A stretch of DNA of 64,000 nucleotides from Macrostomum lignano (Eukaryota): assembly GCA_002269645.1 (NCBI GenBank), contig NIVC01003469.1, forward strand, positions 32,377 to 96,376. Reading direction: 5' to 3'. The number at the start of each line of letters is the position of its first letter. The first letter of the stretch is position 1. Shown here one piece after another: positions 14,138 to 39,284 of the stretch. The translations under genes were made by a program, and so were the position numbers. Under the pieces are notes generated by a model. It searched no databases, had not been told where the DNA came from, and worked only from the letters and a program-made list of their open reading frames with translations.

Positions 14138-15288
14138 GAGCAGGTATTCAATCTGAAAAAGTGCCACAGGTTTGCTTGCTGTAGGCAATTTCAAACAAAT
14201 AAAGGCGTTACGTTTGTGGCTTGTTTGTTGTATTATTAGGCAGTGTATATACATATGATACGATTCGCTCGTGTGCGCCTTGGGACTGACTCTCATGAGT
14301 CTAAATCGCCAGAGAGAAAGTCTAATATTACCTGATGTGCACACAGACGCCAGATTTAAATTTGAGTTCAGCTAAACCTGAATTCGGATTTGCTTTAAAG
14401 GAGCTTAAAAAGTTCAGAAATAGCCTAAAAAGCTACCAACTAAAAACTTGCAACTGGTGGGGGCAGGGACTATGTGCATAAAGCAGACGCATGGTCAATT
14501 ATATAGCTGTTTTCCGGTATGCCGTCTAGTGCAGCATCCATCAGATCATCTGATTCCCTATCCCAGTTGTCGGCTGTTGCTGCCTTGCTAAAATGCTAAA
14601 GCTCCCATTGACTGCCCGCTGCGCCTGTGTGGAGCGACGAGAGAGGAGGTACAGAAAAATTCGGTGGCCGTCTGGCCCACTGGCATGCACTGTGAGTGCA
14701 GCAATGTTCAGCAGAATACTATGTGGGTTCCTGTATTGATTTTTTACTGCACAACACGCGGCGCGCTTCTTCCTGCTGGATGCCGGAACTTACTGAAGCA
14801 AGCAGTTTGCGACAATATTTTGTGACGAATATTGTGGTGGCCTCGAAAATAATCGACAAGACAAATACGGCAGAGCCAAATTTGTAGGCGGTAGCACTTG
14901 GCAATAATGGCGACTGATGCGGGCAATGGCCGCAGATTTTGTTTATTGTAACGGAGACAGACCAAAGTACTACTGAATTCGCAAACGATGCACTGGCGGC
15001 TACACAACAATAAGTTAGATGGTAGGAGGCAGAGGGGGTCGATGAGTGTGAGGCAACGGTGACGAAGTGATGGCGGTGAACGTACGGTGGCGGTGCTCGT
15101 AGTAAGAGCTCGAACTGACAGTAGAAGTGGCGTGACTGAGGCTGGCGAAGGCGTAGCTAGAACCGTGGCGGAGAGAGAAGGCAAGTAAAGAAGGAGTGAG
15201 AGCCCAAGGGCGGGCAGAGCAGCGCGGGGCAGGGTAGGGCTTGACGCGGGAGAACGGGTCTAACCCCGAGCGCTCAGCCAGACAGGAC

Positions 15289-15979
15289 GGGGGCGCTTCA
15301 TAAGACCTAAATTTCACAACGCCTAAAGCACATGACTTCACATCACCTAAATTTCATAACGCCTAAATTTCATAACGCCTAAAACCGAAAATGCATCCTA
15401 CTTCATTTCACCTAAATTTCATATCGCCTAAATTTCATAACGCCTAAAACCGAAAATGCATCCTACTTCATTTCGCCTAAATTTCATATCGCCTAAATTT
15501 CATAACGCCTAAAACCGAAAATGCATCCTACTTCATTTCGCCTAAATTTCATATCGCCTAAATTTCATAACGCCTAAAACCGAAAATGCATCCTACTTCA
15601 TTTCGCCTAAATTTCATATCGCCTAAATTTCACAATGCCTAAAAATCTGCATGCTCTTTCATATCGCCTAAACTTCATATCGCCTAAATTTCATATCGCC
15701 TAAATTTCACAACACCTAAAACTGAATGTGAAGGAGAGAAGCAAAGATTTTAGGCGTTGTGAAATTTAGGCGATATGAAATTTAGGCGATGTGAAGGATG
15801 CTGCATTTTCGGTTTTAGGCGTTGTGAAATTTAGGCGATATGAAATTTAGGCGATGTGAAGGAGGCTGCACTTTTGATTTTAGGCGTTGTGAAATTTAGG
15901 CGATATGAAATTTAGGTGATGTGAAAGAGCGTGCAAATATTTTAGGCGTTGTGAAATTTAGGTCTTATTAAAGCGTCCC
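15289..15979. mobile_element. Foldback-type non-autonomous DNA transposon, 691 bp
   Basis: 8-bp TSD GACAGGAC (15281-15288, 15980-15987); GGG-starting imperfect TIRs continuing into inverted arrays of CGCCTAAATTTCA(T/C)A. Confidence 0.85.
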
Positions 15980-23323: not shown

Positions 23324-23656
23324 AGTAGTATTTACGGTACAAAATTGCCAGCAAACCGCTCTCATAATTCAAAGAGAATTAACCCTTTATCAGTGTGAAA
23401 TGGCTCGTTTTCCCTTCATTATCGCTCGTCTTCACTTCGCTTAACTCGCTTCTCTCATCCTCGCTTCATTTCGGTCAATCTCCTCATTTCACACTTACAA
23501 CGATTAATTCTCTTTGAATTATGAGAATACGCCCTCGTCGTTCGCTTTGGTTTGCTGGCAATTTTGTACCGTACCCAACACTTCTAACACTTCCAAATCT
23601 CTATAACCCCTCGCACGCGCCGCAGGCGCGAAGGGTCTTTTTCTGTTACTAAAAAT
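23324..23656 (+). repeat. Left TIR, 333 bp
   Basis: Reverse complement of 38952-39284. Confidence 0.97.
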
Positions 23657-23667
23657 AGAACAAAAAA

Positions 23668-24066
23668 ATGACACACGTTACTTATATGCAAAATCTGAAT
23701 GAATTGCAGGTAGGAGACCCAGTTGAATACCGAGGTGAGGGGCTTTTTGATGTGGTTGGAACAGCAGCGAATTTTGTTAAAGACAATATGGGTCTTATAG
23801 GGCAAGCAGGCTCCGCAGCAGGTTCTATAACAAATGCTGTAAAAGGAGGAATTGAAGCAGCTAGAGCGGCAGAAGAACTAAAGAAATTGAGAGATTTTAA
23901 CGACACCCTCTCACAAATAAATGCAATAAAAGATTTAAAGCTGGCACAAGCCGCACAACCAACAGAAACCCCCACGAAAAGCGCGCCAATAAGTAATAAA
24001 GATATTCAGGATTTTAATAAAATGTTAACCACAATTAAAGGCGGAAAAGGATTAAAGAAATTTTAA
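23668..24066 (+). CDS. Polinton ORF, 132 aa, Gly/Ala-rich, possible virion core/membrane-active protein
   Basis: AAAATG start; amphipathic Gly/Ala segment; GEGLF and GKGL motifs. Confidence 0.75.
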   Translation: MTHVTYMQNLNELQVGDPVEYRGEGLFDVVGTAANFVKDNMGLIGQAGSAAGSITNAVKGGIEAARAAEELKKLRDFNDTLSQINAIKDLKLAQAAQPTETPTKSAPISNKDIQDFNKMLTTIKGGKGLKKF

Positions 24067-24076
24067 CAATATAAAA

Positions 24077-25051
24077 ATGGACACAGATAATAACCGCTTA
24101 TATTTTATAGGAGAAATTGTAGATACTTTAGATCTAGATGATAATAAACATAGCCACACAATGTTAAAAAGATTGGATCGTTTAGGTAAAAAACTTGACT
24201 ACGATATCGATACATTTAAACTTGCTGCAAAATATGCACAAGAAGGAAGGCCAATATCCTTTAAGAATCATGGTAGAAATTATAGGTTGACAGACTCCGA
24301 TGTAAAATTTTTATTGGAGACTCACACTAAAAAAGACGGTGGGTTGTTACCTATTTTACCAATTCTTTTAGGCCTCGGAGCAGCCGGAGCAGCCGGTTTA
24401 GCAGGTAAAAGAATTCATGATAACCGAAAACAGTTAGCAGAATTAAAAGCAAAACAAGGAGGAATATTGCCATTAGCAACTTTATTACCAATAATTTTTG
24501 CAGGAATAGGAGCAGCTGGTGGAATAGCAGGGGGCGCAGCCGGAATCACAAAAGCAGTAAATGATAAAAAAGCTGCGGATGAAAAAGCTAAACGAGATGC
24601 AGAATTTCAAAGACAGCAAATAACACAGGACGCACAATTCAAACAGAAACTTATTGATACCATTAATAGTAGTTCAGCAACAGCAGAGCAAAAAAGAAAT
24701 GCAGAAGCTAGGTTAGCAGCCGGAAAAGGTTTACTGTTAAATGGCAACGGTTTGGTACTAAAAGGAACGACCCAAGGAAGCGGAGTTGTCGCAGATAAAC
24801 TACAGGAATTTGGTCAAACTTTAGAAAAAACGGGTGAGAAAGCTAAAGGATTTTTTGATAATATTGGAGCTAATTTTAGGCCAGCAGTTCAGAAGATTTT
24901 TAATAAGTTAGGAAAAGATTTTAACATAATTGAAAAACACGATGGAAGCGGATTATATCTCGAAATGAGACCAAAAGCAGGTTCAGGAATTTTCTTAAAT
25001 TCAAATGTTATGGGAAATGGATTGCTATTACCAAAAGCAGATCTCGAATAG
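24077..25051 (+). CDS. Polinton core-protein precursor, 324 aa, with two adenovirus pX/mu-like hydrophobic segments
   Basis: GGLLPILPILLGLGAAG and GGILPLATLLPIIFAGIGAAGG resemble adenovirus pX (GGILPLLIPLIAAAIGA); repeated GxG-hydrophobic motifs. Confidence 0.75.
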   Translation: MDTDNNRLYFIGEIVDTLDLDDNKHSHTMLKRLDRLGKKLDYDIDTFKLAAKYAQEGRPISFKNHGRNYRLTDSDVKFLLETHTKKDGGLLPILPILLGLGAAGAAGLAGKRIHDNRKQLAELKAKQGGILPLATLLPIIFAGIGAAGGIAGGAAGITKAVNDKKAADEKAKRDAEFQRQQITQDAQFKQKLIDTINSSSATAEQKRNAEARLAAGKGLLLNGNGLVLKGTTQGSGVVADKLQEFGQTLEKTGEKAKGFFDNIGANFRPAVQKIFNKLGKDFNIIEKHDGSGLYLEMRPKAGSGIFLNSNVMGNGLLLPKADLE

Positions 25052-25135
25052 GCTCCTGGGGGGAGGGTCTGGACACCAAAAACCCAAAATTAAAAAATCA
25101 ATAATTCAAACATTATATAAATTTTATTCTATAAA

Positions 25136-28100
25136 ATGGAACAAAGAATGACCCCAGATCAGATTCGACAACTTCTTGCAAATGAGCGCCAACAGTTCAA
25201 TCGATTACAAAGACAGATTGAACAAATTGAACAGCGCCAAAGACAACAACGCCGCCAAAGAGCAAGAGAAAGACAGAGAGAAAGGCAGAGAGAAAGAGAA
25301 ATACAAGAACAGCAAATAAATGCATTAGCAAATAATATAAGGGCAGAATATGAAATGAAGCGATTAATAGAAAAGGCTGAATATGAAAAAAGAATAGCAG
25401 AATTAGAAAAAAACCAAAAGAAACCCACACGTCGGAAACCTCGGAATAAATCGGATGAAAAACCATTAGATGAGTTTATTAGGGTTTATCGATTTGAACC
25501 AATGCAGAATGTCCTAGATTTTATTGAAACCCAGCTTTCAAACGGATATAGTGTTGAAATTACTAATGCGAGGGTACAATATTTTTATAATAAAACCGGA
25601 GATGATCGCGAAGAGATTAATCAATACTTAGCAACATTTTATAATATAAGCCAATTTCAAGCTTGGTTTAAGCATTTGGTAGAAAACTACGACATGAATT
25701 TAAGTGTGTTTTCTGGAAGACTTAAAATGACACCAAACGAAATTACACTTAAACACGAAAGGTCAAAGCAGGGTATGGGAACAAATGTCATGTGTGAAAT
25801 TGCAGAGTATAAAGATGAGTACTGTTACATACCTAGTGATGGAAATTGTTTCTACAAGTGTGTTCAGTTTATTTATGGTGATAAAGCCCCATCCAAAGAC
25901 GAATATGGTGCTTGGTTGTACGACTCAAGAACCCAAAGAGGATTAATGACAAATTCAAGAATTGGAAAATTCAATGAATATTTTAATCTTAATATAGGGC
26001 TGTATAACCCTAATAATCGTGGAATTGAACCAAAGTCTCAAAGAGGGATTCACCACGACTGGTTATTAATAAATTACTATCACACAGCCGACTATCACAT
26101 TGGTCATTATTGCCTTATATCCAATAAACAACGAGGAATCGCCCTCGAACGGATAAAAGACAATTATAAAGTAGTATTTAAAAACCCAACGCCCGAAAAT
26201 GTTAAAGAGCTAAAAATGTTCACCACATCCACAAATCCCAAAAAATCAAATGTATACATATTTGATTTTGAAACATATTTAAATTATAATCAACAAGCAT
26301 GTCCGTATGCAGTTGGTCTTTTAAACTATAACGACTTTTCTAATAATTGTAACGAAACCCCAGAGACAATAAAGAAACTAACTAAGATCTTGATATCAGA
26401 TCGCGGTTGTGATTTTCAAACTGGTGGAGATAAAATGGACTGTGTTAGAAAAATGTTTAAATACCTTGGTACAGTTAGGTCAAAAAAGATTGTTTTGATC
26501 GCACACAACTCATCCCGCTTCGATTCATACATACCACTATTTTGTAATATAAAACCAATTAAAATTCTTAAAACCCCAAGAGGAATATTATCAATCACTT
26601 TTGTAAACGATTATATGTCAAAAGAGGTTAGAGCGTTTATAAACAAAGATAAGAAGAAGAATCATAAGGATTCGAAACAAACCATTACGATGCTTTGTTC
26701 ATATCAACACGCATCAATGAGTTTAAAAAAGTTTTGCTCATCAATGACAATTAGAGAGGATTTGCGCAAGACCTCAATGGTTCACGACATTACTGAGGAC
26801 GACTACCTAGAGCGCACGGATGAATGGTATGAATATTTACAATTTGATCTTATTTCTTTATGTGCCTGTATTCATAAGTATAATGAAATAGCATATGAAA
26901 TTGGAGGAATGACAATGTTCGATACTCTTACCTGTTCAAGTTTAACATTAAAATGTTGGTTTAAAGATTTTGTTAGAGTTGAAGACAAAATGAAACAATA
27001 CCTAAAGACAAAAGAAAAAAGTAATTACATTAAAAAAGTTGAAGAAATAATATCTCCGTTAAAAATCGAAGATTATTTTGACTTGAGCAAACTTGATAAA
27101 GCGAAATATCAAACACTATTAAGAAAAGAATTTTCGGTTCACTCTCATACCAACCCTTATATAAGAAGGTTTATGAGGGACGCAGTCAAAGGAGGCAGAG
27201 TATTTGCACTAATAAATAAATACGAAAGTGACTGTTTTCAAACAATTGTAGACGTTGTAAAAGGCCATTTAAAAATACCAACAAGCGACCCATGCGAGGT
27301 TATATCAACTTATCTCAAAAGCGATATGGAAGAAAAAAAGAAAATCGCAATTAAACTAAAAAACCAATTGGGTACCGTATCAGATTGTTTAATGAATTTT
27401 GATGGAGTCTCGTTGTACCCATCTGCTATGTCTGATAAGGATAGTGAATATCCAAGAGCAGAAACAGCCAGAGTTTTTGATATAAGCGAGGAAAAAGATT
27501 TTTTGACACAATTTAATTCACAAACCTTTCGACCAAAAACAGCGGTTTTAAAGATTATGTATGAGAACCCTACCAGCGTTTTTCTTCAACATCTCCCATC
27601 GAAAGATAAAGAGAAATTTTATAATCCGGAAACAAAAGCAAACGAAACAAAAACATTAAATAGGTTTAGAAATGGAAAGGTAATCGACACCTTAAGTTCC
27701 GTAGACATACAAGAAATTGTAAGAATGGGTGGAAAAATATTTAAGATATATAGTGGAATTGTATATGAAAAAAATTACGATTTCTCTCCGTTTCAGAATT
27801 ATATTACAAACCTTTTTGAAATGAGAAAAGTATTTAAAAAAGAAAATAACGAGGCGGGTTCTGAATTAGTAAAAACATTGTTAAATTCCTTATATGGTAA
27901 AACGGTTCAAAGAGACATTACTTTCACAACGCATCTCTGGAATTTGAATACATTAAAAACAGAATACGACGACACAATTAAGTCATATGAGAAAATATGT
28001 GACGATTTATTTTATGTTGAAAAAAAGAAAGACACACAAGAATATTTAGATGAGGATGATAATCCTACAACAGGTCTTTGTCCGGCACAATTAGGAATAT

Positions 28101-28606
28101 TTATCTTAGCTCATTCAAGAAGGATCATGAATAATTTTATCACCTCTATAGACGGTTCAAAGACTCCAGAAATTTATTACGGTGATACGGATTCGTTATA
28201 TATACATAAAAAACATTGGGACACATTAAATAAAAACGGGCATGTTGGAAATAATTTAAGTCAAGGAAAAAACGATTATGGAGAGGGCGGAATTATATTC
28301 GGATATTTTATTGCTCCTGAAATTAAATATTGTCTGTTATTGAAAGACGATTTTATTATGGAAGAGAAAAAAACATTTAAAGGATGTGCAAACGATAAGA
28401 TTAATTTTGCATCGTTTAAAACTTTATATGATGGACAGTCAATAAAAGTAAATAATAATGCTCCGTGGAAACGATCGTTTGAAGGCGGTATAAAAATTCC
28501 TCAAAGCGGATCGACCATATCAAAAACATATACTTCTACGATAAACACATTTAAAAGAGAAAAACCGGATAAAAACGGAGTTATGAAATCAATAGCCTTT
28601 TTGTAA
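25136..28606 (+). CDS. pPolB: Protein-primed family B DNA polymerase with N-terminal vOTU-like domain, 1156 aa
   Basis: Exo I FDFET, Exo II HNSSRFD, Exo III YLQFD; Pol A DGVSLYP, B KTLLNSLYGK, C YGDTDS; OTU-like SDGNCFY..GHY. Confidence 0.97.
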   Translation: MEQRMTPDQIRQLLANERQQFNRLQRQIEQIEQRQRQQRRQRARERQRERQREREIQEQQINALANNIRAEYEMKRLIEKAEYEKRIAELEKNQKKPTRRKPRNKSDEKPLDEFIRVYRFEPMQNVLDFIETQLSNGYSVEITNARVQYFYNKTGDDREEINQYLATFYNISQFQAWFKHLVENYDMNLSVFSGRLKMTPNEITLKHERSKQGMGTNVMCEIAEYKDEYCYIPSDGNCFYKCVQFIYGDKAPSKDEYGAWLYDSRTQRGLMTNSRIGKFNEYFNLNIGLYNPNNRGIEPKSQRGIHHDWLLINYYHTADYHIGHYCLISNKQRGIALERIKDNYKVVFKNPTPENVKELKMFTTSTNPKKSNVYIFDFETYLNYNQQACPYAVGLLNYNDFSNNCNETPETIKKLTKILISDRGCDFQTGGDKMDCVRKMFKYLGTVRSKKIVLIAHNSSRFDSYIPLFCNIKPIKILKTPRGILSITFVNDYMSKEVRAFINKDKKKNHKDSKQTITMLCSYQHASMSLKKFCSSMTIREDLRKTSMVHDITEDDYLERTDEWYEYLQFDLISLCACIHKYNEIAYEIGGMTMFDTLTCSSLTLKCWFKDFVRVEDKMKQYLKTKEKSNYIKKVEEIISPLKIEDYFDLSKLDKAKYQTLLRKEFSVHSHTNPYIRRFMRDAVKGGRVFALINKYESDCFQTIVDVVKGHLKIPTSDPCEVISTYLKSDMEEKKKIAIKLKNQLGTVSDCLMNFDGVSLYPSAMSDKDSEYPRAETARVFDISEEKDFLTQFNSQTFRPKTAVLKIMYENPTSVFLQHLPSKDKEKFYNPETKANETKTLNRFRNGKVIDTLSSVDIQEIVRMGGKIFKIYSGIVYEKNYDFSPFQNYITNLFEMRKVFKKENNEAGSELVKTLLNSLYGKTVQRDITFTTHLWNLNTLKTEYDDTIKSYEKICDDLFYVEKKKDTQEYLDEDDNPTTGLCPAQLGIFILAHSRRIMNNFITSIDGSKTPEIYYGDTDSLYIHKKHWDTLNKNGHVGNNLSQGKNDYGEGGIIFGYFIAPEIKYCLLLKDDFIMEEKKTFKGCANDKINFASFKTLYDGQSIKVNNNAPWKRSFEGGIKIPQSGSTISKTYTSTINTFKREKPDKNGVMKSIAFL

Positions 28607-28975
28607 TAGAGATCACATGCTCTGCCTATTAGAAGCCCTGTACATTAAGACCAAACAGCCCACGTTAAATAACCAACTTGCGATGGGTGGGGCTAGCCGT
28701 CAACTCAGAATTTTTTAGCTGATTTGTCAATGACCGGACTGGCTTGAAACTGATATGCACTTTACCCAACCAATACTGTATCAAAAATTGATTACTATGT
28801 ACAAGTTTTAAACCATCAATTAAAAACTCAATTCAACTACTCTTGTTACTCTCAACTATCTATATATACTGAATATTCGTTCAAATTGTTTCTCAATAAA
28901 AAGACCCTGACGATGTCCTAATGCAAATGGACGAAATGCATCGGCAACTCAAATAATACTTCATGTTGATATTTA
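28605..28975 (+). mobile_element. 5'-truncated Penelope-like element fragment inserted between pPolB and the convergent ORF; right boundary approximate
   Basis: 28605-28718 translates NRDHMLCLLEALYIKTKQPTLNNQL..LRIF*, matching the C-terminus of PLE GIY-YIG endonucleases; followed by AATAAA (28895) and a hammerhead-like motif. Confidence 0.75.
28903..28946 (+). ncRNA. Minimal type I hammerhead ribozyme motif (PLE-type)
   Basis: CUGACGA-(U)-GUCC..GGAC-GAAA, palindromic stem III AUGCAU, AUC cleavage triplet ending 28942; stem I weak (CC/GG only). Confidence 0.6.
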
Positions 28976-28982
28976 CCTTTAT

Positions 28983-29399
28983 TTATCTACTCTTCATCAA
29001 GCGAGCCACTTTACCTGATTTATATTTTTCCTTTCTTTTTTTAAGATATAATTTAATTGCTAAAAGTATTGATAAGTTTCTGATTAATTCAAAACCCGAT
29101 ATTGAACCAATTGCAATACCTAAAAATAATTGAGATAAATTAAGAGTTGGAATAGATTGTAAAATACCTAAAATGATTACACATAACATCGATAAGCTTC
29201 CAAAACCAATATTGAAAAAATCCATATTTCTGATATGATTTGAAACTCTTCTTACTTTTTTAGCATATAAATCATAATCATAGTTAATACGATCAACATT
29301 ACTTAACATGTGACCCTTACGTTGGTCGTGCATAGCACGCGAACCTTCGGTTCGGTCAAAATGGTCACGTTCCCTTTTATCTGCTTCAGACACCGACAT
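28983..29399 (-). CDS. Polinton two-TM membrane protein, 138 aa
   Basis: AAAATG start; two hydrophobic helices; basic C-terminus. Confidence 0.75.
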   Translation of the reverse strand: MSVSEADKRERDHFDRTEGSRAMHDQRKGHMLSNVDRINYDYDLYAKKVRRVSNHIRNMDFFNIGFGSLSMLCVIILGILQSIPTLNLSQLFLGIAIGSISGFELIRNLSILLAIKLYLKKRKEKYKSGKVARLMKSR

Positions 29400-29483
29400 T
29401 TTCGTCTATTTTTAATAGCACTAAAATGAATTCCCCGCGCTCTTTGGGGATTTGTCCCGAGCTCAATAGGTATTGTATTGGAG

Positions 29484-29714
29484 TTATTCTTTCTTTTTCT
29501 CCCATTTAAAACCTATTTTCCAAAACTCTTGAAGGATAATATGGTTTTTTAATAATTTAATTAATTCTTGAAGTTTCTTATTATCCTGAACATTCACTCC
29601 ACTAAATAAAATTCGCGTATGAGATTTAAAAGTTTTTATATTTGATTCTTGTTTAGGAATTGGAATGATAACATTATTATTTTGTCGCATCGATGGTGTT
29701 CTACTAAAAGCCAT
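29484..29714 (-). CDS. Polinton small basic ORF, 76 aa
   Basis: TATATAAAATG start; abuts the fibre stop; co-oriented with the structural block. Confidence 0.6.
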   Translation of the reverse strand: MAFSRTPSMRQNNNVIIPIPKQESNIKTFKSHTRILFSGVNVQDNKKLQELIKLLKNHIILQEFWKIGFKWEKKKE

Positions 29715-29730
29715 TTTATATAGAAATATT

Positions 29731-31716
29731 TTATATTGCTACAGGCGGTTGTTCCAAATATGCAGTCGCAGCAAAATCATAGCCTGCTGATGTGCTACCA
29801 CAAACGGCGGCACCACGAATAAAATGTGCAGCATCTGCTCCTCCAGTTCGAGCACCAAAACCCATAAGAGTTCCCGTTTTATCCAAAGTTCCCCAAGTTC
29901 CGCTATCATATGTAAAAAAGTTTTGCCCAATTAGCGTGTACACTTTGGTTGAAACATTGTATGTGCTTATTTGATACCAAATTCTTTGATTAAGAATATT
30001 TATTTCAAGCAGATGCCAATCACCATTATCAATATTTGCATAAGTTATTGTTTGATCGGCGTCGTTAAGAACATCATTACGAACTGTTGCTCCGTCTGAT
30101 TTTATATTACTCCAAACAACTCCAACTCTGTCAGTCCACTCACTCGCAAACACTATCAAGCCGGCGTTGGTTGTTAATCCAGATCCAAATTCAGTTGTTG
30201 GCCGTTCGTGACAATATGCATAAAACCAAACAGCGTCAGCACCATCTCCTGCAGAATTAGCAACTCGGAAATAGAAGGAGGCGGAGATATTACGAAAATG
30301 GGTGAAATTGAATTGTAACGCTCCAGACCGACCCGATGCTTCATCAGTAATTCTAGCACCATTTTGATAATCAATATATACAGCATCTCCAACAAAACTT
30401 CCAGTTGGAAAAATATCGCCGGCAGTGGTTGGGTTTTGATACCCAGTCCAATTACAAATTACGGGTTCGTACAAATCGGCATCAATCGCAGGTATTCCAT
30501 CCAATTTTATTTTATCGTTAAAAGACATTCGGCCATCTGCCGTTTGTGTTACAACGGTATCAACATAACCCTTAGTAACAACAGAACTGTTATCGTTTAT
30601 AGTAGAGATATTAGTAATTGTATTACCACCCATATCAATTGATTGATTAACTACTCCTAAATTTAAATCAAGAATTGTAAAAGTCTGTCTATAAATCTGA
30701 AAAGTTGCCAAGCCTGGGTTGGTAGAACCCGATGTTGATGTAAGACAGAACAATCTGAAATATGAATATGTTTTATCAAAATTTTGTGTGACATTAATTG
30801 TTTGAGTTGAATTATTTATTTCTACAGAACTATCCGCCGGTATTAAAACATCCCAACTTGTATTGTCATTACTCCCCTCAAATCGCCATGATGCTGGGTG
30901 TTCGGTTGAAGGTGATGGTCTCCCACGTAAATCAATTTTATAACACATTATCGCGGAAGGGCATTGGACTTGAATCCAATAATCAGTTTGAGTATTATTT
31001 ATTGCCCAATCTGTTGAGTCATTTCCATCAAACGCTTTCCAACTTGCAAAATCAGTTGTATTAAATGCGGTGCTTGCGGTTATTGCAAAACCATTTCCGC
31101 TCCAATCTGCCATTGTTGGTATGTGGCCAGTTTCAACCGTTTGGAATCGATCCTGTTTTGGGGCTCCACCTCCAACTAAATTATCAACTTCAGTTTTGGT
31201 ATAAGAATCAGCTATATTCCGTTTTAAATTTAAGGAATTATCCACCTCTGTTTTGGTATAGGAATCGGCAACGTTCCGTTTTAAATTTAAGGAATTATCC
31301 ACCTCTGTTTTGGTATAGGAATCTGCAACATTCCGTTTTAAATTTAATGATGTGTCGATTTCAGTTTTGGTGTAGGAATCAGTTATATCTCTTTTTAAAT
31401 TTAAGGAATTATCAACTTCAGTTTTGGTGTAGGAATCGGCAACATTTCGTTTTAAATTTAATGAATCATCTATTTGAGTTTTGGTATAGGAATCTGCAAC
31501 ATTTCTTTTTAAATTTAATGAATCATCTATTTGAGTTTTGGTATAGGAATCTGCAACATTTCTTTTTAAATTTAGTTTATTATCAATTTCAGTTTTTTTA
31601 TAACCTTCATCTTCATTAATATATCGGTTATCTCCGAATGTAACACTTATACCACCAGTTGTACCACCACCAGTACTTGTTGTTCCGTTCCATGAGGGCG
31701 TTCCAGAAAATAACAT
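29731..31716 (-). CDS. Fibre/receptor-binding-like protein, 661 aa
   Basis: Seven 19-aa repeats NLKRNVADSYTKTEVDNSL; F5/8-type C/discoidin-like module (AFDGN..W..YWIQ..W.FEGSND..W); tail-fibre-like linkers MGGNTITN..TKGYVD and GRMSFNDKIKLDGI; C-terminal L-type lectin/ConA-like region (GDGADAVWF). Confidence 0.75.
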   Translation of the reverse strand: MLFSGTPSWNGTTSTGGGTTGGISVTFGDNRYINEDEGYKKTEIDNKLNLKRNVADSYTKTQIDDSLNLKRNVADSYTKTQIDDSLNLKRNVADSYTKTEVDNSLNLKRDITDSYTKTEIDTSLNLKRNVADSYTKTEVDNSLNLKRNVADSYTKTEVDNSLNLKRNIADSYTKTEVDNLVGGGAPKQDRFQTVETGHIPTMADWSGNGFAITASTAFNTTDFASWKAFDGNDSTDWAINNTQTDYWIQVQCPSAIMCYKIDLRGRPSPSTEHPASWRFEGSNDNTSWDVLIPADSSVEINNSTQTINVTQNFDKTYSYFRLFCLTSTSGSTNPGLATFQIYRQTFTILDLNLGVVNQSIDMGGNTITNISTINDNSSVVTKGYVDTVVTQTADGRMSFNDKIKLDGIPAIDADLYEPVICNWTGYQNPTTAGDIFPTGSFVGDAVYIDYQNGARITDEASGRSGALQFNFTHFRNISASFYFRVANSAGDGADAVWFYAYCHERPTTEFGSGLTTNAGLIVFASEWTDRVGVVWSNIKSDGATVRNDVLNDADQTITYANIDNGDWHLLEINILNQRIWYQISTYNVSTKVYTLIGQNFFTYDSGTWGTLDKTGTLMGFGARTGGADAAHFIRGAAVCGSTSAGYDFAATAYLEQPPVAI

Positions 31717-31726
31717 TTTTTACTGT

Positions 31727-32194
31727 CTATTTTATAGAGTCTAAAATCGCCCCGTAGGGTCGCATACTTTGTATGATCCCTTTAAAGTCTTCGGGTCTTT
31801 CCTTAGAGTTATTAATTTTATATAAAAAATACAACGCCGCTTGCCCGCAATAACTTTTATCAAATGTTTGAAATTGTTCGTGATAATCTCCACATAAACG
31901 ATTTTTAGTATGATTAAATTTATCTTTTATTTCCTGTAACGGAGGAAGCGCGTATGAATCAAAAAAATAAACAAGTTTAGGTTTGGAATAAACTGCCGAC
32001 CAATGAACACCGTTTTCTTTTGTTGTTTCAATATTAACAATGAAAGATCCATATTTTGGTAAGTCTTTTATCTCATCCCGCATAACACATCTGAATGGTT
32101 TTATTTTTAACTGCCGCGCCCAATTTGTTAATTCGATATTGCTTGTTGTGTCTGTTCCATATCTTTGTTTAAAATCATCCCACGTTAGTGCCAT
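31727..32194 (-). CDS. PRO: Adenain-like cysteine maturation protease, 155 aa
   Basis: GVHWSA (His), FFDSY (Asp), FQ..SYCG (Gln/Cys). Confidence 0.93.
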   Translation of the reverse strand: MALTWDDFKQRYGTDTTSNIELTNWARQLKIKPFRCVMRDEIKDLPKYGSFIVNIETTKENGVHWSAVYSKPKLVYFFDSYALPPLQEIKDKFNHTKNRLCGDYHEQFQTFDKSYCGQAALYFLYKINNSKERPEDFKGIIQSMRPYGAILDSIK

Positions 32195-32195
32195 T

Positions 32196-32369
32196 TTATG
32201 TTCCTGAAAAACTCTTGGTTTTAGTTAGTTTTGTAGGTTTAGATTTTAACAGTTCCTTTCGGATTTTTTCTGCTTGAAGGTGTTTCAATTTTGTTAATTC
32301 GATTTCATAATTATCCTTTGCATTTTGAACTTTATCTGATTGTTTTTTTAAAACATTGTTGTTACCCAT
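32196..32369 (-). CDS. Small Lys-rich ORF, 57 aa (MGNNNVLKKQ...KSFSGT), absent from the ORF track
   Basis: Hand-translated; CTATAGTAAAAATG start; fills the mCP-PRO gap, stop 1 nt before the PRO ATG. Confidence 0.65.
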   Translation of the reverse strand: MGNNNVLKKQSDKVQNAKDNYEIELTKLKHLQAEKIRKELLKSKPTKLTKTKSFSGT

Positions 32370-32413
32370 TTTTACTATAGGAAACGGACGAAGTCCTCGC
32401 CCCTACGGGGCGG

Positions 32414-33199
32414 TTAAACCTGTTTTATCCGTAAAATTACCGTTATTGATTGCCCACCAAAACTTATTAATCTATCGCTTTCATCTACAATCCTAATATA
32501 AATTGATTGAACACTATATTGAGTTAAAGGATAATATATTGGGGTTTGGGGTGAAACAATCATTTTCTCTCCAATTGGAACAGCAAGAAACGGGATTGAA
32601 TAAATAATTCCACGTTGAACCAAAACTCCGTTATCGTCTGTTATATAACCACCGTTTGATATGTCGGTTGTTATATTAATTGTATTAACTCCACCCTCAA
32701 TATTTCCAACTGTATCGCCGGTGCTTGATGTGGTAACGATTCGGGAATTAAATCCGAGTATGGTTCTGAGTGAATTTGCAATTGTGAAATCAACCTGATA
32801 TCCGGATTCGAGTGATAGTGTGAATCTGCCAGATGGTAAATCAACCCCTATAACAATTGCGCCTGCAACCCAATCTCCATTAGCTGTTAATTCTCCTTCT
32901 ATATAAGCATTCAAATCGGTATAAGAATATGCTCCTGGGTTAACGCTAAATGTTGTCCAATTGGCTCCGGAATCTTTAGAATATCTAAATTGATTATTTG
33001 TTGCATTAATTAATTGAGGCATGTTAAAAACTGAAAATAGTATCAAACCTATTTGATAACTTAGGCTTTGATCGAGTTGTAACGGATCACGCAATTGAAT
33101 GCGTTGTTCACTGGTTGTCATTATAAACTGTAAGGTTGTACTAAATTTTGAATTAGTTCGATCTACCAATTGTTTTATAGTATCTAAATTTGTAGCCAT
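32414..33199 (-). CDS. mCP: Minor capsid (penton) protein, 261 aa
   Basis: Start at CTATAAAAATG (33199); beta-rich; motifs NxxFxY, PGAY, VPxGEK..P..PIYYP, IxIRIVDE typical of Polinton pentons. Confidence 0.85.
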   Translation of the reverse strand: MATNLDTIKQLVDRTNSKFSTTLQFIMTTSEQRIQLRDPLQLDQSLSYQIGLILFSVFNMPQLINATNNQFRYSKDSGANWTTFSVNPGAYSYTDLNAYIEGELTANGDWVAGAIVIGVDLPSGRFTLSLESGYQVDFTIANSLRTILGFNSRIVTTSSTGDTVGNIEGGVNTINITTDISNGGYITDDNGVLVQRGIIYSIPFLAVPIGEKMIVSPQTPIYYPLTQYSVQSIYIRIVDESDRLISFGGQSITVILRIKQV

Positions 33200-33245
33200 T
33201 TTTATAGTGGGAGAATCGGACGAAGTCCGCGTTCCGAAGGAACGA

Positions 33246-34001
33246 TCACTCCTCATCGTCTTCTTTTATCAGATCTTTTAAGATTCGATTTTTCCTTTCT
33301 AACCTAGGGTTGATATATATATATTTATATTGACTATCATCCCAAATTTTTTTACACATACTTTTGAATGGTTTTGCATCCAACCCAGGATTAAATCTAG
33401 TGTGGATATTTTGTAAATCATAGTTATCTAAATCAAACATTACACAACAGCTAGCATTCTTTTTTATAATTGATTCTAATTCTCTAAAGGATTGGGTAAG
33501 ATAAAATGCTCCAATTCCATCTCCTCTACCACTAACAAAAATTTCCTTTTGCAATTCTTGATCGCCATCATTAATACAATCATCAAAAATAATTAGTGTT
33601 TTATCATGTTTTGGAATTTGATCATAGGATAATCGGGTTGATACTCTAACAGTTGGGGCTCGGTTGTTAATGTTTTCCGGTTCTTTTGCAGTTGTTTTAC
33701 ATAAATCCTCAATGTCATCGAGTGTAAATCTTGGTTCATCATCGTCCTCATATTGCTCATATGCTCTTAACATTCTAAACAAGATATCTTTTTTTAATTT
33801 GTTTTTTAATCCATGTTTAAGAAATTCATAATATTTTATTCTAGGTTTGTTAGTATATATTAATAAATTATTATAGTCTAACATTCCATCTGTTGTTAAT
33901 AAATCGTAAACAAAGTGTGTTTTTCCTTTACCTGATCCTCCGATTACTAAACAAAGAAAAGGATCATTTGGAAATATCTTATCGTGTTTTGCCTTTACCA
34001 T
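33246..34001 (-). CDS. ATPase: A32/FtsK-HerA-family genome-packaging ATPase, 251 aa
   Basis: Walker A GGSGKGKT, Walker B LIIFDD, GRG (usually GRH) and TQ motifs. Confidence 0.95.
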   Translation of the reverse strand: MVKAKHDKIFPNDPFLCLVIGGSGKGKTHFVYDLLTTDGMLDYNNLLIYTNKPRIKYYEFLKHGLKNKLKKDILFRMLRAYEQYEDDDEPRFTLDDIEDLCKTTAKEPENINNRAPTVRVSTRLSYDQIPKHDKTLIIFDDCINDGDQELQKEIFVSGRGDGIGAFYLTQSFRELESIIKKNASCCVMFDLDNYDLQNIHTRFNPGLDAKPFKSMCKKIWDDSQYKYIYINPRLERKNRILKDLIKEDDEE

Positions 34002-34020
34002 TTTTAAAGAAATAATTTAA

Positions 34021-35493
34021 CTAAATTGGGGCGTCACGAACAATCGTGCCATCAGCTTTAGCAATTGACATATATTCCTCTAGAAACAATACGTGGGCGT
34101 CGATTGCCTGATTACCGGTTTTATTAATCTCTAACATGTAATTAAGTCCAACATTGGCTACGTTTTCTTTCTGTGCCGTTAGATCATAAACAACCACTGG
34201 ATGAATGTTTAGAAATTCTGTGGGTGTGTACTGAGGGACGGCAAATGCTTCATTTTTGACATAATCTTGATAATATTTTATAAAATCATTAACATTATTA
34301 TTTGCTATGTTTAGATTAAGGGGGTCTTTAACCGGATAATATTGATCATCAACCTGCAGGCGGATATTCTGAACATTAAACTCGTTAATAGCTGCAGCCG
34401 CATTGTCTGTTGCAGTAGCTGCTTGTGCTGCTATGGCACCGGATTGAAGCCAATATAAATCCCCATTTGTTCTTTTACTCCTTCTGTTTGTTATTTTAAA
34501 CCAAACAAAAATATATCTCACCCGACGTTTTGATGTAATTATCTGCCACTGGAATGAATCCTGGTTATTATTAATGGTTCGCATAAAATGTCGACGATTC
34601 AAATAAAATATTTCCTGATCATGCGTTAACTGATTATCGATGTGTTTTAAAAGTGGGGCTGTTACCTCAATAGTTGGTACGACTAATTGAATTGAATCTA
34701 TACGAATTGCTATATCGGTTGAAATCGAGGTTCCATAAAGTATCCTAGGCTGATATCCGCCAGATATTTGCAACTGTATCCCAAATTTTAATCCTTTCCA
34801 TACCCGATTTGGTGAGAAGAACCCAAATAGTGGAAAGATTGAAAAGTCTTGCTCATATGCTGTTGCTGTGGTTAAAACCGCGACTGGGAATTTATTCTGA
34901 CGATCTATAAAACCTGTATTAATATCTTTTGTATTAGTCATGGTGGTTACAACTGGAACTATATTGGTATTAAGATAAGCTATAAGAGCTGCGGTATCTG
35001 CACCAGCTGCGTTTTGTACATTAGGGAAAACTACTGCTTGACCATTACCCTTATCAGGCATCCACCCAACATTATCACCAACTTGTTTTGATAAATAAGT
35101 ATAATTTAAATGTTTCAAAACTCCATTATTCTCTGCGGGATTTGATGCTGTCTCAACCTCGGCTCCATTAACTGACAGTTGGGCTTGGGAAAAACATTTA
35201 TAAAACCAATCATTTTCTATTATTATTCCAGAACGATCTGCGATATCGTCGGCTGCAAGAGCAGTTCCATCATTTCTAGTATACAACCATCTAACACGGA
35301 AAAATGCGTTTTTCATATCCAATATAGTGTTGGTTGCGCCGATGTCAAAAGTTACCGTTCCAGTAGTAAAGTTATTTGAATTATCACTTGTTGGTAGGGT
35401 AAAATTTAAATCTCTTGCTCTGACCTCATTAATATACTGACGGTGCTTTTTGAAATGAAATTTATCACTCCACATAGTTTTTGTTTCAGCCAT
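34021..35493 (-). CDS. MCP: Major capsid protein (double jelly-roll), 490 aa
   Basis: Size, position next to ATPase/penton, beta-rich; motifs F..AQLSVNGAEVE, F+YLNR, RYIFVWF, QYYP, P+VVYDLT. Confidence 0.85.
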   Translation of the reverse strand: MAETKTMWSDKFHFKKHRQYINEVRARDLNFTLPTSDNSNNFTTGTVTFDIGATNTILDMKNAFFRVRWLYTRNDGTALAADDIADRSGIIIENDWFYKCFSQAQLSVNGAEVETASNPAENNGVLKHLNYTYLSKQVGDNVGWMPDKGNGQAVVFPNVQNAAGADTAALIAYLNTNIVPVVTTMTNTKDINTGFIDRQNKFPVAVLTTATAYEQDFSIFPLFGFFSPNRVWKGLKFGIQLQISGGYQPRILYGTSISTDIAIRIDSIQLVVPTIEVTAPLLKHIDNQLTHDQEIFYLNRRHFMRTINNNQDSFQWQIITSKRRVRYIFVWFKITNRRSKRTNGDLYWLQSGAIAAQAATATDNAAAAINEFNVQNIRLQVDDQYYPVKDPLNLNIANNNVNDFIKYYQDYVKNEAFAVPQYTPTEFLNIHPVVVYDLTAQKENVANVGLNYMLEINKTGNQAIDAHVLFLEEYMSIAKADGTIVRDAPI

Positions 35494-35527
35494 TTTTTTA
35501 AGTTAAAAAAGTTTTTTATGTTAAAAA

Positions 35528-36199
35528 ATGAGTCAATTTATGGACGTTGATGGAGAGTTAGCGATTTATAAAGAGAAGCAAAGATATTCTGATTTTGTTA
35601 GAAATTTGCAAAAAAGAAAGTTAGGAATACAATTAGCTGGTGAAAGATTTGCTGCTCCTTTTGTTAATCCTATTACGGGGAAAATTAGTGAACTAGAAAA
35701 AACAGATAAAGACCTTCTGGAAAAAATTGCTAAGAATACCGAGCCAAAAGAGGATGAAATTTTGGATGAGCCGCCTACTTATGATGTTGATCAAGCACTA
35801 TTGAGAGTTGCAGAAATTAGGGCTGCAGAAAGGGGTAGAGTTGAACAATATCCGAGAGCTGCACCAACTAGTATTGCTGTGCGAGATTTAGAGAATAATA
35901 ATTATCGAATTGGTGGAGTTGTTAAAAATCGAAATGAACTATATAGTGAATTGGGCGGAGCATATAATATTATTATGAACCCGAGGGTAAAATTTAATCC
36001 TGAATTATATACTAGGGATGAATTAGTAAGTGCTAAAAATTTTTATGATGAGTTAGGAGTAAGAGCTGCTAAGAATACAAGTTTATATAAAAGGATTGTT
36101 GATTCTATAAATAACAAACCGGCTGTTGGAGAAGGATTTAAAACTCCACGAAAACTTGTTTTAGCTGCTGCGAAAGCTGCTGGACATACCGGTGTTTAA
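35528..36199 (+). CDS. Polinton conserved-type ORF, 223 aa, function unknown
   Basis: AAAATG start; ends GEGF..KLVLAAAKAAGHTGV, resembling the Polinton LLxASxxAGN motif. Confidence 0.7.
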   Translation: MSQFMDVDGELAIYKEKQRYSDFVRNLQKRKLGIQLAGERFAAPFVNPITGKISELEKTDKDLLEKIAKNTEPKEDEILDEPPTYDVDQALLRVAEIRAAERGRVEQYPRAAPTSIAVRDLENNNYRIGGVVKNRNELYSELGGAYNIIMNPRVKFNPELYTRDELVSAKNFYDELGVRAAKNTSLYKRIVDSINNKPAVGEGFKTPRKLVLAAAKAAGHTGV

Positions 36200-36230
36200 T
36201 TAATTAATTGTTAAATTTATTTTTTATAAA

Positions 36231-36830
36231 ATGGATGAAACAAAGATTTGTAGTCGATGTAAAGAAGAAAAGCCTATGACGAAAGAATTTTTTAGATGGA
36301 GAAATGATTCAAAAAAATTTAGAAATGATTGTCGATCTTGTGAGAACGTTATATCACAACTGTGGATAAAAAATAATAAAGAATATCTAAAAAACAAATA
36401 TCACACTGATGAAAATTACAAACTTATTATAAACACACGAAATAGAATAAATTCTCTTCTAAAATCAAATAATGGTCGAAAAAATAATCATACTATTGAT
36501 TACCTTGGTTGCTCAATTGAGTTCTTTACTGATTGGTTAAATTTCACAAAACATTATTATGTTCCAAAAAGTTATACTGGAAAGTTACATATTGATCATT
36601 TCATTCCCGCTTCTTCATTTAGTTACAAAGACGAAGATCAAAGGAAAAAGTCGGAACATTGGACAAATAAAAGATACTTAGCTGCTTTTGATAATAAAAC
36701 TAAATTTGTTAAACAACCAACCGTTGAAGAGTTTGCAAAACAATTAGTGTTAACTTGTATTTTTAAGGCTATTAAAAATGAGCAACCGAACGAAGTTCGC
36801 GAACCTTGGGTTCGACCAATTAGTATTTGA
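36231..36830 (+). CDS. Free-standing HNH/endonuclease VII-like nuclease with N-terminal CxxC..CxxC zinc finger, 199 aa
   Basis: CSRC..CRSC; RNRINSLLK..YLGCSIE; LHIDHFIPASSF..HWTN..DNKTK beta-beta-alpha-metal pattern, as in homing-endonuclease-like proteins of large DNA viruses. Confidence 0.8.
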   Translation: MDETKICSRCKEEKPMTKEFFRWRNDSKKFRNDCRSCENVISQLWIKNNKEYLKNKYHTDENYKLIINTRNRINSLLKSNNGRKNNHTIDYLGCSIEFFTDWLNFTKHYYVPKSYTGKLHIDHFIPASSFSYKDEDQRKKSEHWTNKRYLAAFDNKTKFVKQPTVEEFAKQLVLTCIFKAIKNEQPNEVREPWVRPISI

Positions 36831-38387
36831 AGGAGGATTATTGGACGTTCAAAAAGGATTAACAAGTTTACCACCAATCTTTACTACTGGAAAATATACT
36901 GGGGAACTACACCTACCATCAATGAACTTCACAGGTTAGTCCGTGGCCTGAGTGAGGAAGGCAATGTCCTTGCTAGTCACTATTTGTGGCGACATCTTCA
37001 AATTGCGTGAAACCCGTCATACAGCTTCAAGTACCACTTCAATTGAGAAATCTTTTGAAGGAACAGAGGTAACTCCTCTTCCCAAAGGTAACAAGCTTGA
37101 AGACAAGGTGGCAATGCGCAGCCAAGCTCCTAAGTATTTTAAATATAAGGAGAAGGTTCAGAGAGCAGACGGAGATGGGCGGTAATTTAACCGCTTAAGG
37201 TGTGCTCCAGCCTCTTTCGAAAGATTGAGGGTAAACTACCCGGCACTAAGTTAGATTTGAGATTAAATCCTGATGACACTCCAAAAGCTGATTCAATTCC
37301 CATTAACGGTATTGATTGGTTAGCATACTATCATGACTTAGCATACAGAGATGCTGATAAGAACTCACCCGAGGAAGCATTAAGATTAAAACATGAAGCC
37401 GATCAAAAAATGATTCAAGGATTAGATAACTTACAAGGATTGTCAATAGGCCAAAGATTAACTCGGTGGATGGTTAAAAAGATTCTGCAATCTAAAGTTA
37501 AATTTGGTTTGGGAATTAATTACAATCAACATGGAAATAATTGTGCTGAGTGTTTACTATTAAGTGGCAGTGGGTTAAGTTCTGATAAGGCAAAGATTCT
37601 TCATAAAGAATATCGAAAACCTAAATTTTATAGAAAAATCATGAACTTCAAAAAGAATGAAATTTGGTATGCTGATTTAATGTCGATGCCGAGCGACAGA
37701 GGATATAAATATATTTTAACCATATTAGATGGTTTTACTAGATACGCGTGGGCAGTTCCTTTAAAATCCAAAAAAGGAGATGAGGTTGCTGCTGCTTTTA
37801 GAAGTCTTGATGAAAAAAGCGAAAGGTTGTGTGTTGATGAAGGAAAAGAATTTTACAATCCTCATATGTATAAATTGTATCATTTTGAAAAAGGACAAGA
37901 AAGGAAAAAGGACGCGAATGGGGAGTATATTAATAAAATTTATTCTATTTATGGAGAAAGCAAAAATGCCTTTATTGAAAGATTTAATCGAACTTTAGGT
38001 AAGAAATTGTGGTTTCAGTTTAGTCTTAATGGAAATCAAAAGTGGGTAAAAATATTACCAGACGTCGTGAAAGATTATAACAATTCATATCATTCGGCTA
38101 TAAAGATGACTCCTCAACAAGCTTATATCAGTCCTGAAAAAGTTAAAGTTACTTTTGGAGAATTTGAAAAAAATAAAAAGAAATCTTTTAAGGTTGGTGA
38201 TTCTGTTTATATCTATAAATGGAAAGATAAGTTTGAAAAGGGAAGAAAAGGATATTGGAAAATAAGTGAGAAATTTACTATCAGTAAAGTTTTAAATACC
38301 AATCCTACAACCTATATAATTGCTGATAAGGATGGTGAAGAAATATTGGGTTCGTTTTATGAGAATCAAATAATATCTGCGAACTAA
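36778..38387 (+). CDS. INT: PLA2X-integrase fusion, join(36778..36936,37239..38387), 435 aa after intron removal
   Basis: Splicing restores GELHLPSMNFTG|PGTKLDLRL (PLA2 GPG loop), then HDLAY and EAD; integrase D (YADL), D (VDEGKEF), E (IERFNRTL); AAAATG start at 36778. Confidence 0.9.
36937..37238 (+). ncRNA. Group I intron, subgroup IC1, 302 nt, ORF-less, terminal omega-A
   Basis: Hand-paired P1 (U.G at 5' splice site), P2, P2.1, P3, P4, P5abc, P6, P7, P8, P9, P9.0, P10; P/Q/R/S-like motifs AAUUGCGUGAAA, AAUGCGCAGCCAAG, GUUCAGAGAGCAGA, UAAGGUGUGCUCC. Confidence 0.93.
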
Positions 38388-38397
38388 GTTCGAACAA

Positions 38398-38622
38398 TTA
38401 CTTAAGACAACAGGGTAGTAAATTTTTTATAACAAACAAAAACAATATTATTACTATTATTGTAACTAATATAATTATTGACATTTGTTCAACAGATATC
38501 AAACTTAAATTTTCATTAAGTTCATTAATCGGCACATTTCCGATGTAGGAGTAGTTTACCTTCATTTTTTTATATATATTTTTCATAATAAATGTTGTTT
38601 CTGTTATAGAATAATAGTTCAT
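38398..38622 (-). CDS. Small single-TM protein, 74 aa from ATG 38622
   Basis: AAAATG start; TM IIILVTIIVIILFLFVI followed by KNLLPCCLK. Confidence 0.6.
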   Translation of the reverse strand: MNYYSITETTFIMKNIYKKMKVNYSYIGNVPINELNENLSLISVEQMSIIILVTIIVIILFLFVIKNLLPCCLK

Positions 38623-38638
38623 TTTTTTAATATTTTTT

Positions 38639-38953
38639 TCACATAAAAATTTCAATTTCATTCTCAGAATCACTAGTTTCATATGAGCTATTTGTTGAGT
38701 TGGAATCATCTGAACGAACCTTCCAATCATCCGAATTTAAATAATCTCCAAGTTGAAATATTAACTCACCCTCTTGCTCTAAATCATACATCCCATCCAA
38801 CTCTAATGGATAAAGTTTTAGGTCGTGCTTGTCGTCATACTTTAAATAAACTTCATCAATTATTCCATTCAAAATATGTTGTTTTATTATCTCTGCATTT
38901 TTAGCAACAGTCTCAAAAGTATCACTAACAGAAAAGGTGTAAACTCGGGTCAT
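38639..38953 (-). CDS. Polinton acidic ORF, 104 aa
   Basis: ATG at the inner edge of the right TIR (AAAAATG); intact ORF. Confidence 0.65.
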   Translation of the reverse strand: MTRVYTFSVSDTFETVAKNAEIIKQHILNGIIDEVYLKYDDKHDLKLYPLELDGMYDLEQEGELIFQLGDYLNSDDWKVRSDDSNSTNSSYETSDSENEIEIFM

Positions 38954-39284
38954 TTTTAGTAACAGAAAAAGACCCTTCGCGCCTGCGGCGCGTGCGAGGG
39001 GTTATAGAGAATTGGAAGTGTTAGAAGTGTTGGGTACGGTACAAAATTGCCAGCAAACCAAAGCGAACGACGAGGGCGTATTCTCATAATTCAAAGAGAA
39101 TTAATCGTTGTAAGTGTGAAATGAGGAGATTGACCGAAATGAAGCGAGGATGAGAGAAGCGAGTTGAGCGAAGTGAAGACGAGCGATAATGAAGGGAAAA
39201 CGAGCCATTTCACACTGATAAAGGGTTAATTCTCTTTGAATTATGAGAGCGGTTTGCTGGCAATTTTGTACCGTAAATACTACT
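38952..39284 (-). repeat. Right TIR, 333 bp
   Basis: Reverse complement of 23324-23656 with 2 mismatches. Confidence 0.97.

What the first reader, a model, noticed from the sequence alone, without database searches (positions are those of the whole stretch)
37205..37247. The intron ends in omega-A, not the near-universal omega-G
Seen: three independent constraints place the 3' splice site after A37238: the protein junction (G|P), P9.0 (A37209-U37237 and G37210-C37236), and P10 register (3' exon CCCGG against IGS CCGUG, 4 of 5 pairs). The P7 binding pair (G37163-C37207) is still the canonical G-specific pair. Known: a natural omega-A intron exists in Coxiella burnetii 23S rRNA and splices with an impaired second step; engineered P7 pair changes alter nucleoside specificity. 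Inference: either a rare natural omega-A intron that throttles integrase output, or a post-insertion G-to-A mutation that silences this copy.
Basis: partly seen in the sequence, partly recalled or inferred. Interest (0 to 1): 0.74.

Follow-up and report, generated by a model that had tools for sequence, protein, structure and literature searches.

The report
Viral self-splicing intron ending in A
A self-splicing-type intron in the integrase gene of a virus-like element in an animal genome ends in A instead of the usual G in about three of four copies, so this is an inherited variant of the family and not an error, although its splicing has not been shown.

Summary
Confirmed. A 302-nt group I intron (36937-37238) splits the PLA2-like/integrase gene of a complete Polinton/Maverick in an animal genome. 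It ends in A37238, and the P7 guanosine-binding pair is unchanged. Intronless sister copies fix the junction independently. The A is not private: 85 of 114 family copies end in A and 29 in G (genome-wide pattern 82 versus 25), and contigs of three runs from three studies read A. The sister family (28 of 28) and two metagenome relatives end in G, so A is derived. It lies on backgrounds as diverse as the whole family, including four complete elements with target-site duplications. Omega-A copies keep P9.0 (84 of 84) and a P10 pair (77 of 84) that omega-G copies often lose. Best reading (0.6): a tolerated omega-A that splices more slowly, guided by P9.0 and P10. Main rival (0.25): a non-splicing passenger allele rescued in trans. 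No spliced junction was seen, but contig data cannot show absence. Omega-A is known from hexacoral ND5-717 and Coxiella, and this scan noted one earlier in a phage. New here: A and G alleles segregate on one ribozyme, in a protein gene of an animal endogenous virus.

The parts
23324..39284 (.). Complete Polinton/Maverick element with AGTAGT ends and a perfect 6-bp target-site duplication
   Evidence: pPolB PF03175 E 8e-20, Pox_A32 ATPase E 6e-7, rve E 1e-6
23324..23656 (+). Left terminal inverted repeat
   Evidence: 333 nt, 2 mismatches to the right arm
38952..39284 (-). Right terminal inverted repeat
36231..36830 (+). Free-standing 199-aa HNH-like ORF, optional in the family
   Evidence: No Pfam hit; HNH label from motifs by eye, recalled; 35% identical, E 2e-11, to a reading frame in intron-bearing soil contig L260; not linked to intron presence or omega state
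36778..36936 (+). Exon 1 of the PLA2-like/integrase gene (53 codons in this copy; many sisters start about 10 codons later)
36937..37238 (+). Group I intron, 302 nt, no ORF, IC1-like
   Evidence: Rfam; ends fixed by intronless copies
36932..36950 (+). P1 with the U36936-G36946 wobble at the 5' splice site; 36941-36945 is the P10 guide
   Evidence: wobble in 112 of 112 aligned copies
37161..37208 (+). P7 (37161-37167 with 37203-37208), guanosine-binding pair G37163-C37207
   Evidence: G-C in 84 of 84 omega-A and 28 of 28 omega-G copies
37209..37237 (+). P9.0 (37209-37210 with 37236-37237) enclosing hairpin P9 (37211-37230)
37238..37238 (+). Omega position, A in this copy
   Evidence: A in 85 and G in 29 of 114 family copies
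37239..38387 (+). Exon 2: rest of the PLA2-like domain fused to a retroviral-type integrase, 382 codons, open
   Evidence: PF00665 E 1e-6 and PF08398 E 0.005, both below curated cut-offs; homologues carry both domains

Best explanation
A group I ribozyme intron sits in the calcium-loop codons (G|PGT) of the PLA2-like/integrase fusion gene of an animal Polinton family. SHOWN: intron limits, intact core, unchanged guanosine site, terminal A in three quarters of copies, G in all outgroups. INFERRED mechanism: step 1 is normal (free guanosine binds G37163-C37207 and cuts after U36936). In step 2 the terminal A fits the pocket poorly, so the 3' splice site is placed by P9.0 and P10, and exons are joined accurately but more slowly, as in other natural omega-A introns. 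Unspliced RNA stops within six codons of the intron start, so splicing efficiency sets the amount of full-length fusion protein. The A allele arose once or a few times long ago and has been shuffled by recombination onto most backgrounds; whether it is neutral or favoured is open.
For: A in 85 of 114 copies, 81 of 111 in the omega-blind protein-search sample, 82 versus 25 by pattern. Diversity among A copies 7.3%, among G 8.1%, between 8.2%; at 3% clustering 29 A, 11 G, 2 mixed. A copies are not one clade on intron or exon-2 trees (14 and 11 changes; AU p 1e-4 and 8e-105). Four complete A elements with different local haplotypes have exact target-site duplications and 0-2 TIR mismatches (window, L003, L144, L136); 24 distinct right flanks among 26 A copies read. 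No other lesion spreads like this: shared exon-2 stops or frameshifts reach at most 5 of 132 copies. In A copies 53 core positions deviate at 0.18% against 3.7% elsewhere in the intron, and piN/piS is 0.07 for exon-2 codons 1-57, before the first Met. P9.0 intact in 84 of 84 A against 16 of 28 G copies; P10 pair at +3 in 77 of 84 against 2 of 28. Precedent: hexacoral ND5-717 ends in A and gives correctly ligated exons in vivo with over 70% of precursor unspliced (PMC6545197).
Against: No exon-exon joint was found in contigs of four runs, while contigs bridging both splice sites unspliced were present; the runs are only guessed to be RNA and contigs drop rare forms, so this is not proof of absence. 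Linkage to omega decays within about 10 nt (r2 0.65 at +3, 0.00 at -6, at most 0.2 beyond 25 nt), so the selection signals are family-wide and could be maintained through G copies alone. Frameshifts in the first 171 nt of exon 2 are somewhat enriched in A copies (18 of 75, expected 15%, p 0.05; G 1 of 18; Fisher p 0.11), though 61 of 75 are single-base losses typical of assembly error. Core deviations are 2.5 times higher in A than G copies (0.18% against 0.07%), private substitutions twice as many on average. The P9.0 and P10 associations rest on a few inherited events at adjacent sites. About 150 copies in one genome make rescue in trans easy.
Confidence: 0.6

Rival explanations
1. Passenger allele: omega-A copies do not join exons. 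They spread because G-type, IE-type or intronless copies supply the protein in trans, or because integrase alone is made from an internal Met while the PLA2 part is lost.
For: 29 G, 24 other-intron and 3 intronless family copies coexist. First Met of exon 2 is codon 58 in 87 of 88 open copies, upstream of the integrase domain. Free recombination lets G copies maintain the core. Mild excess of PLA2-part frameshifts in A copies. Unspliced contigs present.
Against: A far larger target of other null changes exists, yet none passes 5 of 132 copies while A holds 75%. P9.0 breaks occur only on G backgrounds. Natural omega-A introns do splice (PMC6545197).
Confidence: 0.25
2. Host-assisted rescue: the A is edited to inosine by a host deaminase and then read like G, or the spliceosome or a cryptic G removes the intron.
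For: Host is an animal (PF00858 channel gene); animals have A-to-I editing (own knowledge). A CAG-GT donor-like site lies 2 nt upstream of the ribozyme 5' site in 110 of 112 copies and an in-frame AG at +16 in 60 of 84 A copies.
Against: No A-to-G difference at omega in contigs of X1, X5, X6 (all their A>G places are listed elsewhere), though these may be DNA. The spliceosomal route would delete six residues of the conserved loop, and its acceptor is missing in 24 of 84 A copies. The only in-frame Gs shared by all copies (-9, -15) lie inside helix P9.
Confidence: 0.1
3. Private mutation after insertion, or an assembly error, in this one copy.
For: Only that G is near-universal and that 29 sisters carry it. 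Many copies lie at contig ends, where repeat consensus can be homogenised.
Against: 85 copies on 17 or more local haplotypes; A read in contigs of runs from three studies, 2015-2023.
Confidence: 0.01

Closest known systems
Hexacoral mitochondrial ND5-717 group I intron (PMC6545197: passages and section 11 read; PMC8146996: passages and discussion read)
   Same: Natural terminal A in a protein-coding gene of an animal; reported to give correctly ligated exons in vivo at low efficiency.
   Different: Mitochondrial, obligatory, described as A-ending throughout hexacorals, giant P8 insert. Here: nuclear-integrated viral element, 302 nt, optional intron, A and G alleles segregate in one genome.
Coxiella burnetii Cbu.L1917 (Raghavan et al. 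2007, title only, seen in a reference list; slower splicing is recalled, papers not held)
   Same: Group I intron lacking the canonical omega G.
   Different: Bacterial rRNA intron; no coexisting G allele known to me.
Group I introns of protist Polinton-like viruses (PMC12220804, passages read)
   Same: RF00028 introns of about 300-380 nt in protein genes of integrated Polinton-type elements.
   Different: Reported in a cryptophyte, a rhizarian and a chlorophyte, upstream of the capsid gene; the passages read say nothing on the terminal base. Here the host is an animal and the gene is a PLA2-like/integrase fusion.
Alpha adintoviruses / Polintons with parvovirus-like PLA2 genes (PMC8502044, passages read)
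   Same: TIRs, pPolB, integrase, ATPase and a PLA2-like domain.
   Different: There PLA2 is described fused to protein X; here it is fused to integrase and split by a ribozyme intron.
Nuclear IC1 rDNA introns, Tetrahymena type (PMC3679873, passages read)
   Same: Core layout, P1 wobble, P7, P9.0, P10.
   Different: That 2013 review states that nuclear group I introns occur only in rRNA genes of eukaryotic microorganisms.

Membership tests
Group I intron | Conserved P3-P9 catalytic core | tested here: met
   Rfam RF00028 full model, 67.2 bits over cut-off 50; core columns nearly invariant
Group I intron | U-G wobble at the 5' splice site in P1 | tested here: met
   112 of 112 copies
Group I intron | Guanosine-binding G-C pair in P7 | tested here: met
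   112 of 112 copies
Group I intron | Removal restores the host reading frame | tested here: met
   Intronless natural copies give the same junction
Group I intron, canonical omega-G type | Terminal guanosine (near-universal, with published exceptions) | tested here: not met
   A37238; G in 29 of 114 sisters. Not filed as the canonical type.
Group I intron | Self-splicing activity | not testable with these tools
   Needs an RNA assay
Subgroup IC1 | P2.1, P5abc extension and IC1 core motifs | tested here: inconclusive
   Long insert between P5 strands in the Rfam alignment and a P2.1 hairpin; no subgroup model was run, label rests on recall
Natural omega-A introns (ND5-717, Cbu.L1917) | Terminal A inherited in a lineage with the P7 G-C pair kept | tested here: met
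Natural omega-A introns (ND5-717, Cbu.L1917) | Accurate exon ligation in vivo | tested here: inconclusive
   No joint in contigs of 4 runs of guessed or unknown type
Polinton/Maverick | Terminal inverted repeats and 6-bp target-site duplication | tested here: met
Polinton/Maverick | Protein-primed PolB, retroviral-type integrase, packaging ATPase | tested here: met
   (integrase hit just under the curated cut-off; homologues)
Polinton/Maverick | Major and minor capsid proteins, maturation protease | not tested
   Open ORFs of 490, 280 and 155 aa had no informative Pfam hit; no fold search run
Collaborative homing (ORF-less intron plus free-standing nuclease) | Nuclease gene travels with the intron | tested here: not met
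   HNH-like ORF in 61 of 84 A, 23 of 29 G, 17 of 23 other-intron and 3 of 3 intronless copies

The most novel reading that the evidence does not exclude
Omega-A and omega-G are two working alleles of one ribozyme with different second-step rates, and the derived A allele has been favoured because it dampens or delays the membrane-active PLA2-integrase fusion of an animal endogenous virus (or blocks intron circularisation and reverse splicing). P9.0 and P10 became essential on the A background; a swapped P7/J8-7 base triple in this family, or host A-to-I editing, may license it. That would be a natural one-base RNA rheostat on viral integration in an animal nucleus.
Probability: 0.15. Interest if true: 0.85.

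Novelty: new variant of a known kind. Interest (0 to 1): 0.62.

Why it matters
The terminal G is treated as almost indispensable, and the few natural exceptions come without a G-ending twin. Here evolution supplies matched natural A and G versions of the same ribozyme on many backgrounds, so the cost of omega-A and what compensates for it can be measured on unaltered sequences. It also places a ribozyme intron in a protein gene in an animal nuclear genome, which my searches (open-licence library only) did not find in print; the nearest reports are protist Polinton-like viruses and rDNA of microbes.

Tried and rejected
RNA evidence: no RNA holder on record was listed. Four runs kept as contigs were laid on a typical A copy (L020) at 92% likeness: no joint across the intron; this is no evidence of absence. 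An apparent contig end at the 5' splice site in X1 and X5 is explained by a variant 30 nt upstream. Read-through from the GTG in P7 rejected: 10 copies have an in-frame stop 3 codons before the 3' site and only 2 have an ATG there. Omega-specific change in P7 rejected: P7 is the same in A and G copies. Stronger P10 by free energy not supported: G haplotypes form the more stable free duplex, but in a shifted register. Collaborative homing with the HNH-like ORF not supported. Single clonal burst of A rejected. IMG/VR: no relative with the single protein; 29 distant loci with an alignment, 17 of them scanned, none with an Rfam intron. DNA pattern scans: 0 of 3 viral and 2 of 24 metagenome matches were real relatives. 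First flank script failed because TIR sequences differ between copies, redone; left ends were found for 3 of 8 A and 3 of 6 G copies asked. My registers for P2, P3 and P8 were off and are not used. Rfam missed two known intron copies and the second intron type. The Coxiella papers were not held. L199 (sister family) was dropped from family counts; L135 and L194 (no 5' part) from the 112-copy alignment.

Full report
Setting. Window 23324-39284 is a complete Polinton/Maverick: 333-nt inverted repeats with 2 mismatches, AGTAGT ends and an exact 6-bp target-site duplication, with pPolB, packaging ATPase and integrase hits. The genome is a 764-Mb eukaryote; an amiloride-sensitive channel gene in the window (PF00858, E 7e-35) marks it as an animal. 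Rfam finds one RNA family in the window, a group I intron at 36927-37229.

Observation. Exon 1 ends at U36936, paired with G36946 in P1; exon 2 starts at 37239 with P-G-T and stays open for 382 codons. The base before it is A37238. Natural intronless copies (3 of this family, 10 of a sister family) read Gly codon straight into Pro codon, which fixes both splice sites without structural argument.

Is the A private? No. From three own-genome searches (150 of 514 protein candidates scored) I held 154 distinct copies: 114 with this intron (85 A, 29 G), 1 sister-family intron (G), 24 with a different intron at the same site, 13 intronless and 2 truncated. Exact patterns over the whole assembly give 82 A and 25 G, controls 0. 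Contigs from three runs of three studies cover the site and show no other letter there; G haplotypes may have been filtered by the 92% threshold, so this shows presence of A only.

Polarity and age. The sister family (59% identical exon 2) has an intron at the same site; 28 of 28 scored copies end in G. Two metagenome contigs with an intron at this site end in G (L260, L276). So A is derived (inference). It is not a recent burst: diversity among A copies (7.3%) is close to that among G copies (8.1%); clustering at 3% leaves 29 A, 11 G and 2 mixed groups; A copies are rejected as one clade on both an intron tree and an exon-2 tree. Linkage with omega is gone within about 10 nt, so the family recombines heavily and one old A allele is enough to explain the pattern. 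A-bearing elements have inserted recently: 24 distinct right flanks among 26 read, and four complete elements with exact duplications and near-identical repeats. Caveat: many copies lie at contig ends, where near-identity between copies may partly be an assembly effect.

Does it still work? Indirect evidence only. For: the core is nearly invariant in A copies (0.18% deviation against 3.7%), and the PLA2 codons before the first internal Met are under strong constraint (piN/piS 0.07). No other damaging allele passes 5 of 132 copies, while A holds three quarters. The two helices that place the 3' site are kept in A copies (P9.0 84 of 84, P10 +3 pair 77 of 84) and often lost in G copies (16 of 28, 2 of 28); three different P9.0-breaking alleles all sit on G. 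Against: recombination means G copies alone could maintain constraint; rescue in trans is easy; A copies show a slight excess of early exon-2 frameshifts (p 0.05) and of core deviations; the helix associations are few inherited events. Contigs of four runs show unspliced forms and no joint, which cannot show absence.

Mechanism. Step 1 should be normal because the guanosine site is unchanged in all 112 aligned copies. In step 2 the A binds poorly and P9.0 and P10 carry the positioning (inference; PMC2588497, passages read, notes that P9.0 and P10 strengthen substrate binding and that omega-G competes with free guanosine). Unspliced RNA stops within six codons of the intron start in all 113 copies with a mapped 5' site, so only spliced RNA gives the full fusion. 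I put 0.6 on tolerated and splicing, 0.25 on passenger, 0.1 on host-assisted routes.

Known relatives. Natural omega-A is published: hexacoral ND5-717 ends in A and gives correct ligation in vivo with over 70% of precursor unspliced (PMC6545197, passages and section 11 read; PMC8146996). Coxiella L1917 lacks omega G (title in a reference list; details recalled). Group I introns occur in protist Polinton-like viruses (PMC12220804, passages). A 2013 review restricts nuclear group I introns to rDNA of microbes (PMC3679873, passages). Searches found no report of such an intron in an animal Polinton, and (listings, some passages) none of a segregating A/G pair; subscription papers and supplements were not seen.

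Verdict. Real, inherited and family-wide. Omega-A itself is a known rarity; the segregating A/G pair on one ribozyme and the setting in an animal endogenous virus are the new points. New variant of a known kind, interest 0.62.

Noticed in passing
L093:589-913 and 23 other copies (e.g. L132, L162): A second, different intron of 321-325 nt occupies the same insertion site; its core motifs look IE-like (recalled; Rfam gave no hit) and it shares peripheral segments with the window's intron. Two candidate 3' sites, both ending in G, would each alter the GPGT motif.
   Followed up: partly
L199, L308-L335: A sister Polinton family carries a same-site intron (880 nt in L199) with a 237-codon open frame inside; 28 of 28 scored copies end in G; intronless copies coexist.
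   Followed up: partly
window 37165-37166, 37202-37205: P7 and J8/7 differ from the sister family by a swapped pair with G in place of A at 37202, which looks like a co-varied base triple (Tetrahymena layers recalled). Present in both A and G copies.
   Followed up: partly
window 36231-36830; L260: The free-standing HNH-like ORF resembles a reading frame in the intron-bearing soil contig L260, suggesting a former intron-encoded nuclease; absent in about a quarter of copies.
   Followed up: partly
P0005, P0010, P0013, P0020: Database homologues start at or just before PGT, and two begin with a translation of the intron's 3' end, so the same intron is hidden in other Polintons and mis-annotated as protein.
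   Followed up: no
L073 and L016: Two copies share a right flank but differ in intron length (333 against 303 nt): gene conversion or mis-assembly. The 30-nt insert lies 148 nt into the intron (L077 against L020).
   Followed up: no
L336 (element of L077): This copy's polymerase region looks unlike the window's pPolB, suggesting module swapping in the family; seen by eye only.
   Followed up: no
window 29731-31716 (-): 661-aa ORF with tandem repeats and an F5/8 type C domain, possibly a fibre or spike protein.
   Followed up: no
window 7512-11345 (+), 12434-14344 (-), 15297-15971: An intact LTR-retrotransposon pol ORF, a single-ORF amiloride-sensitive channel gene, and an inverted array of short repeats lie in the host flank.
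   Followed up: no
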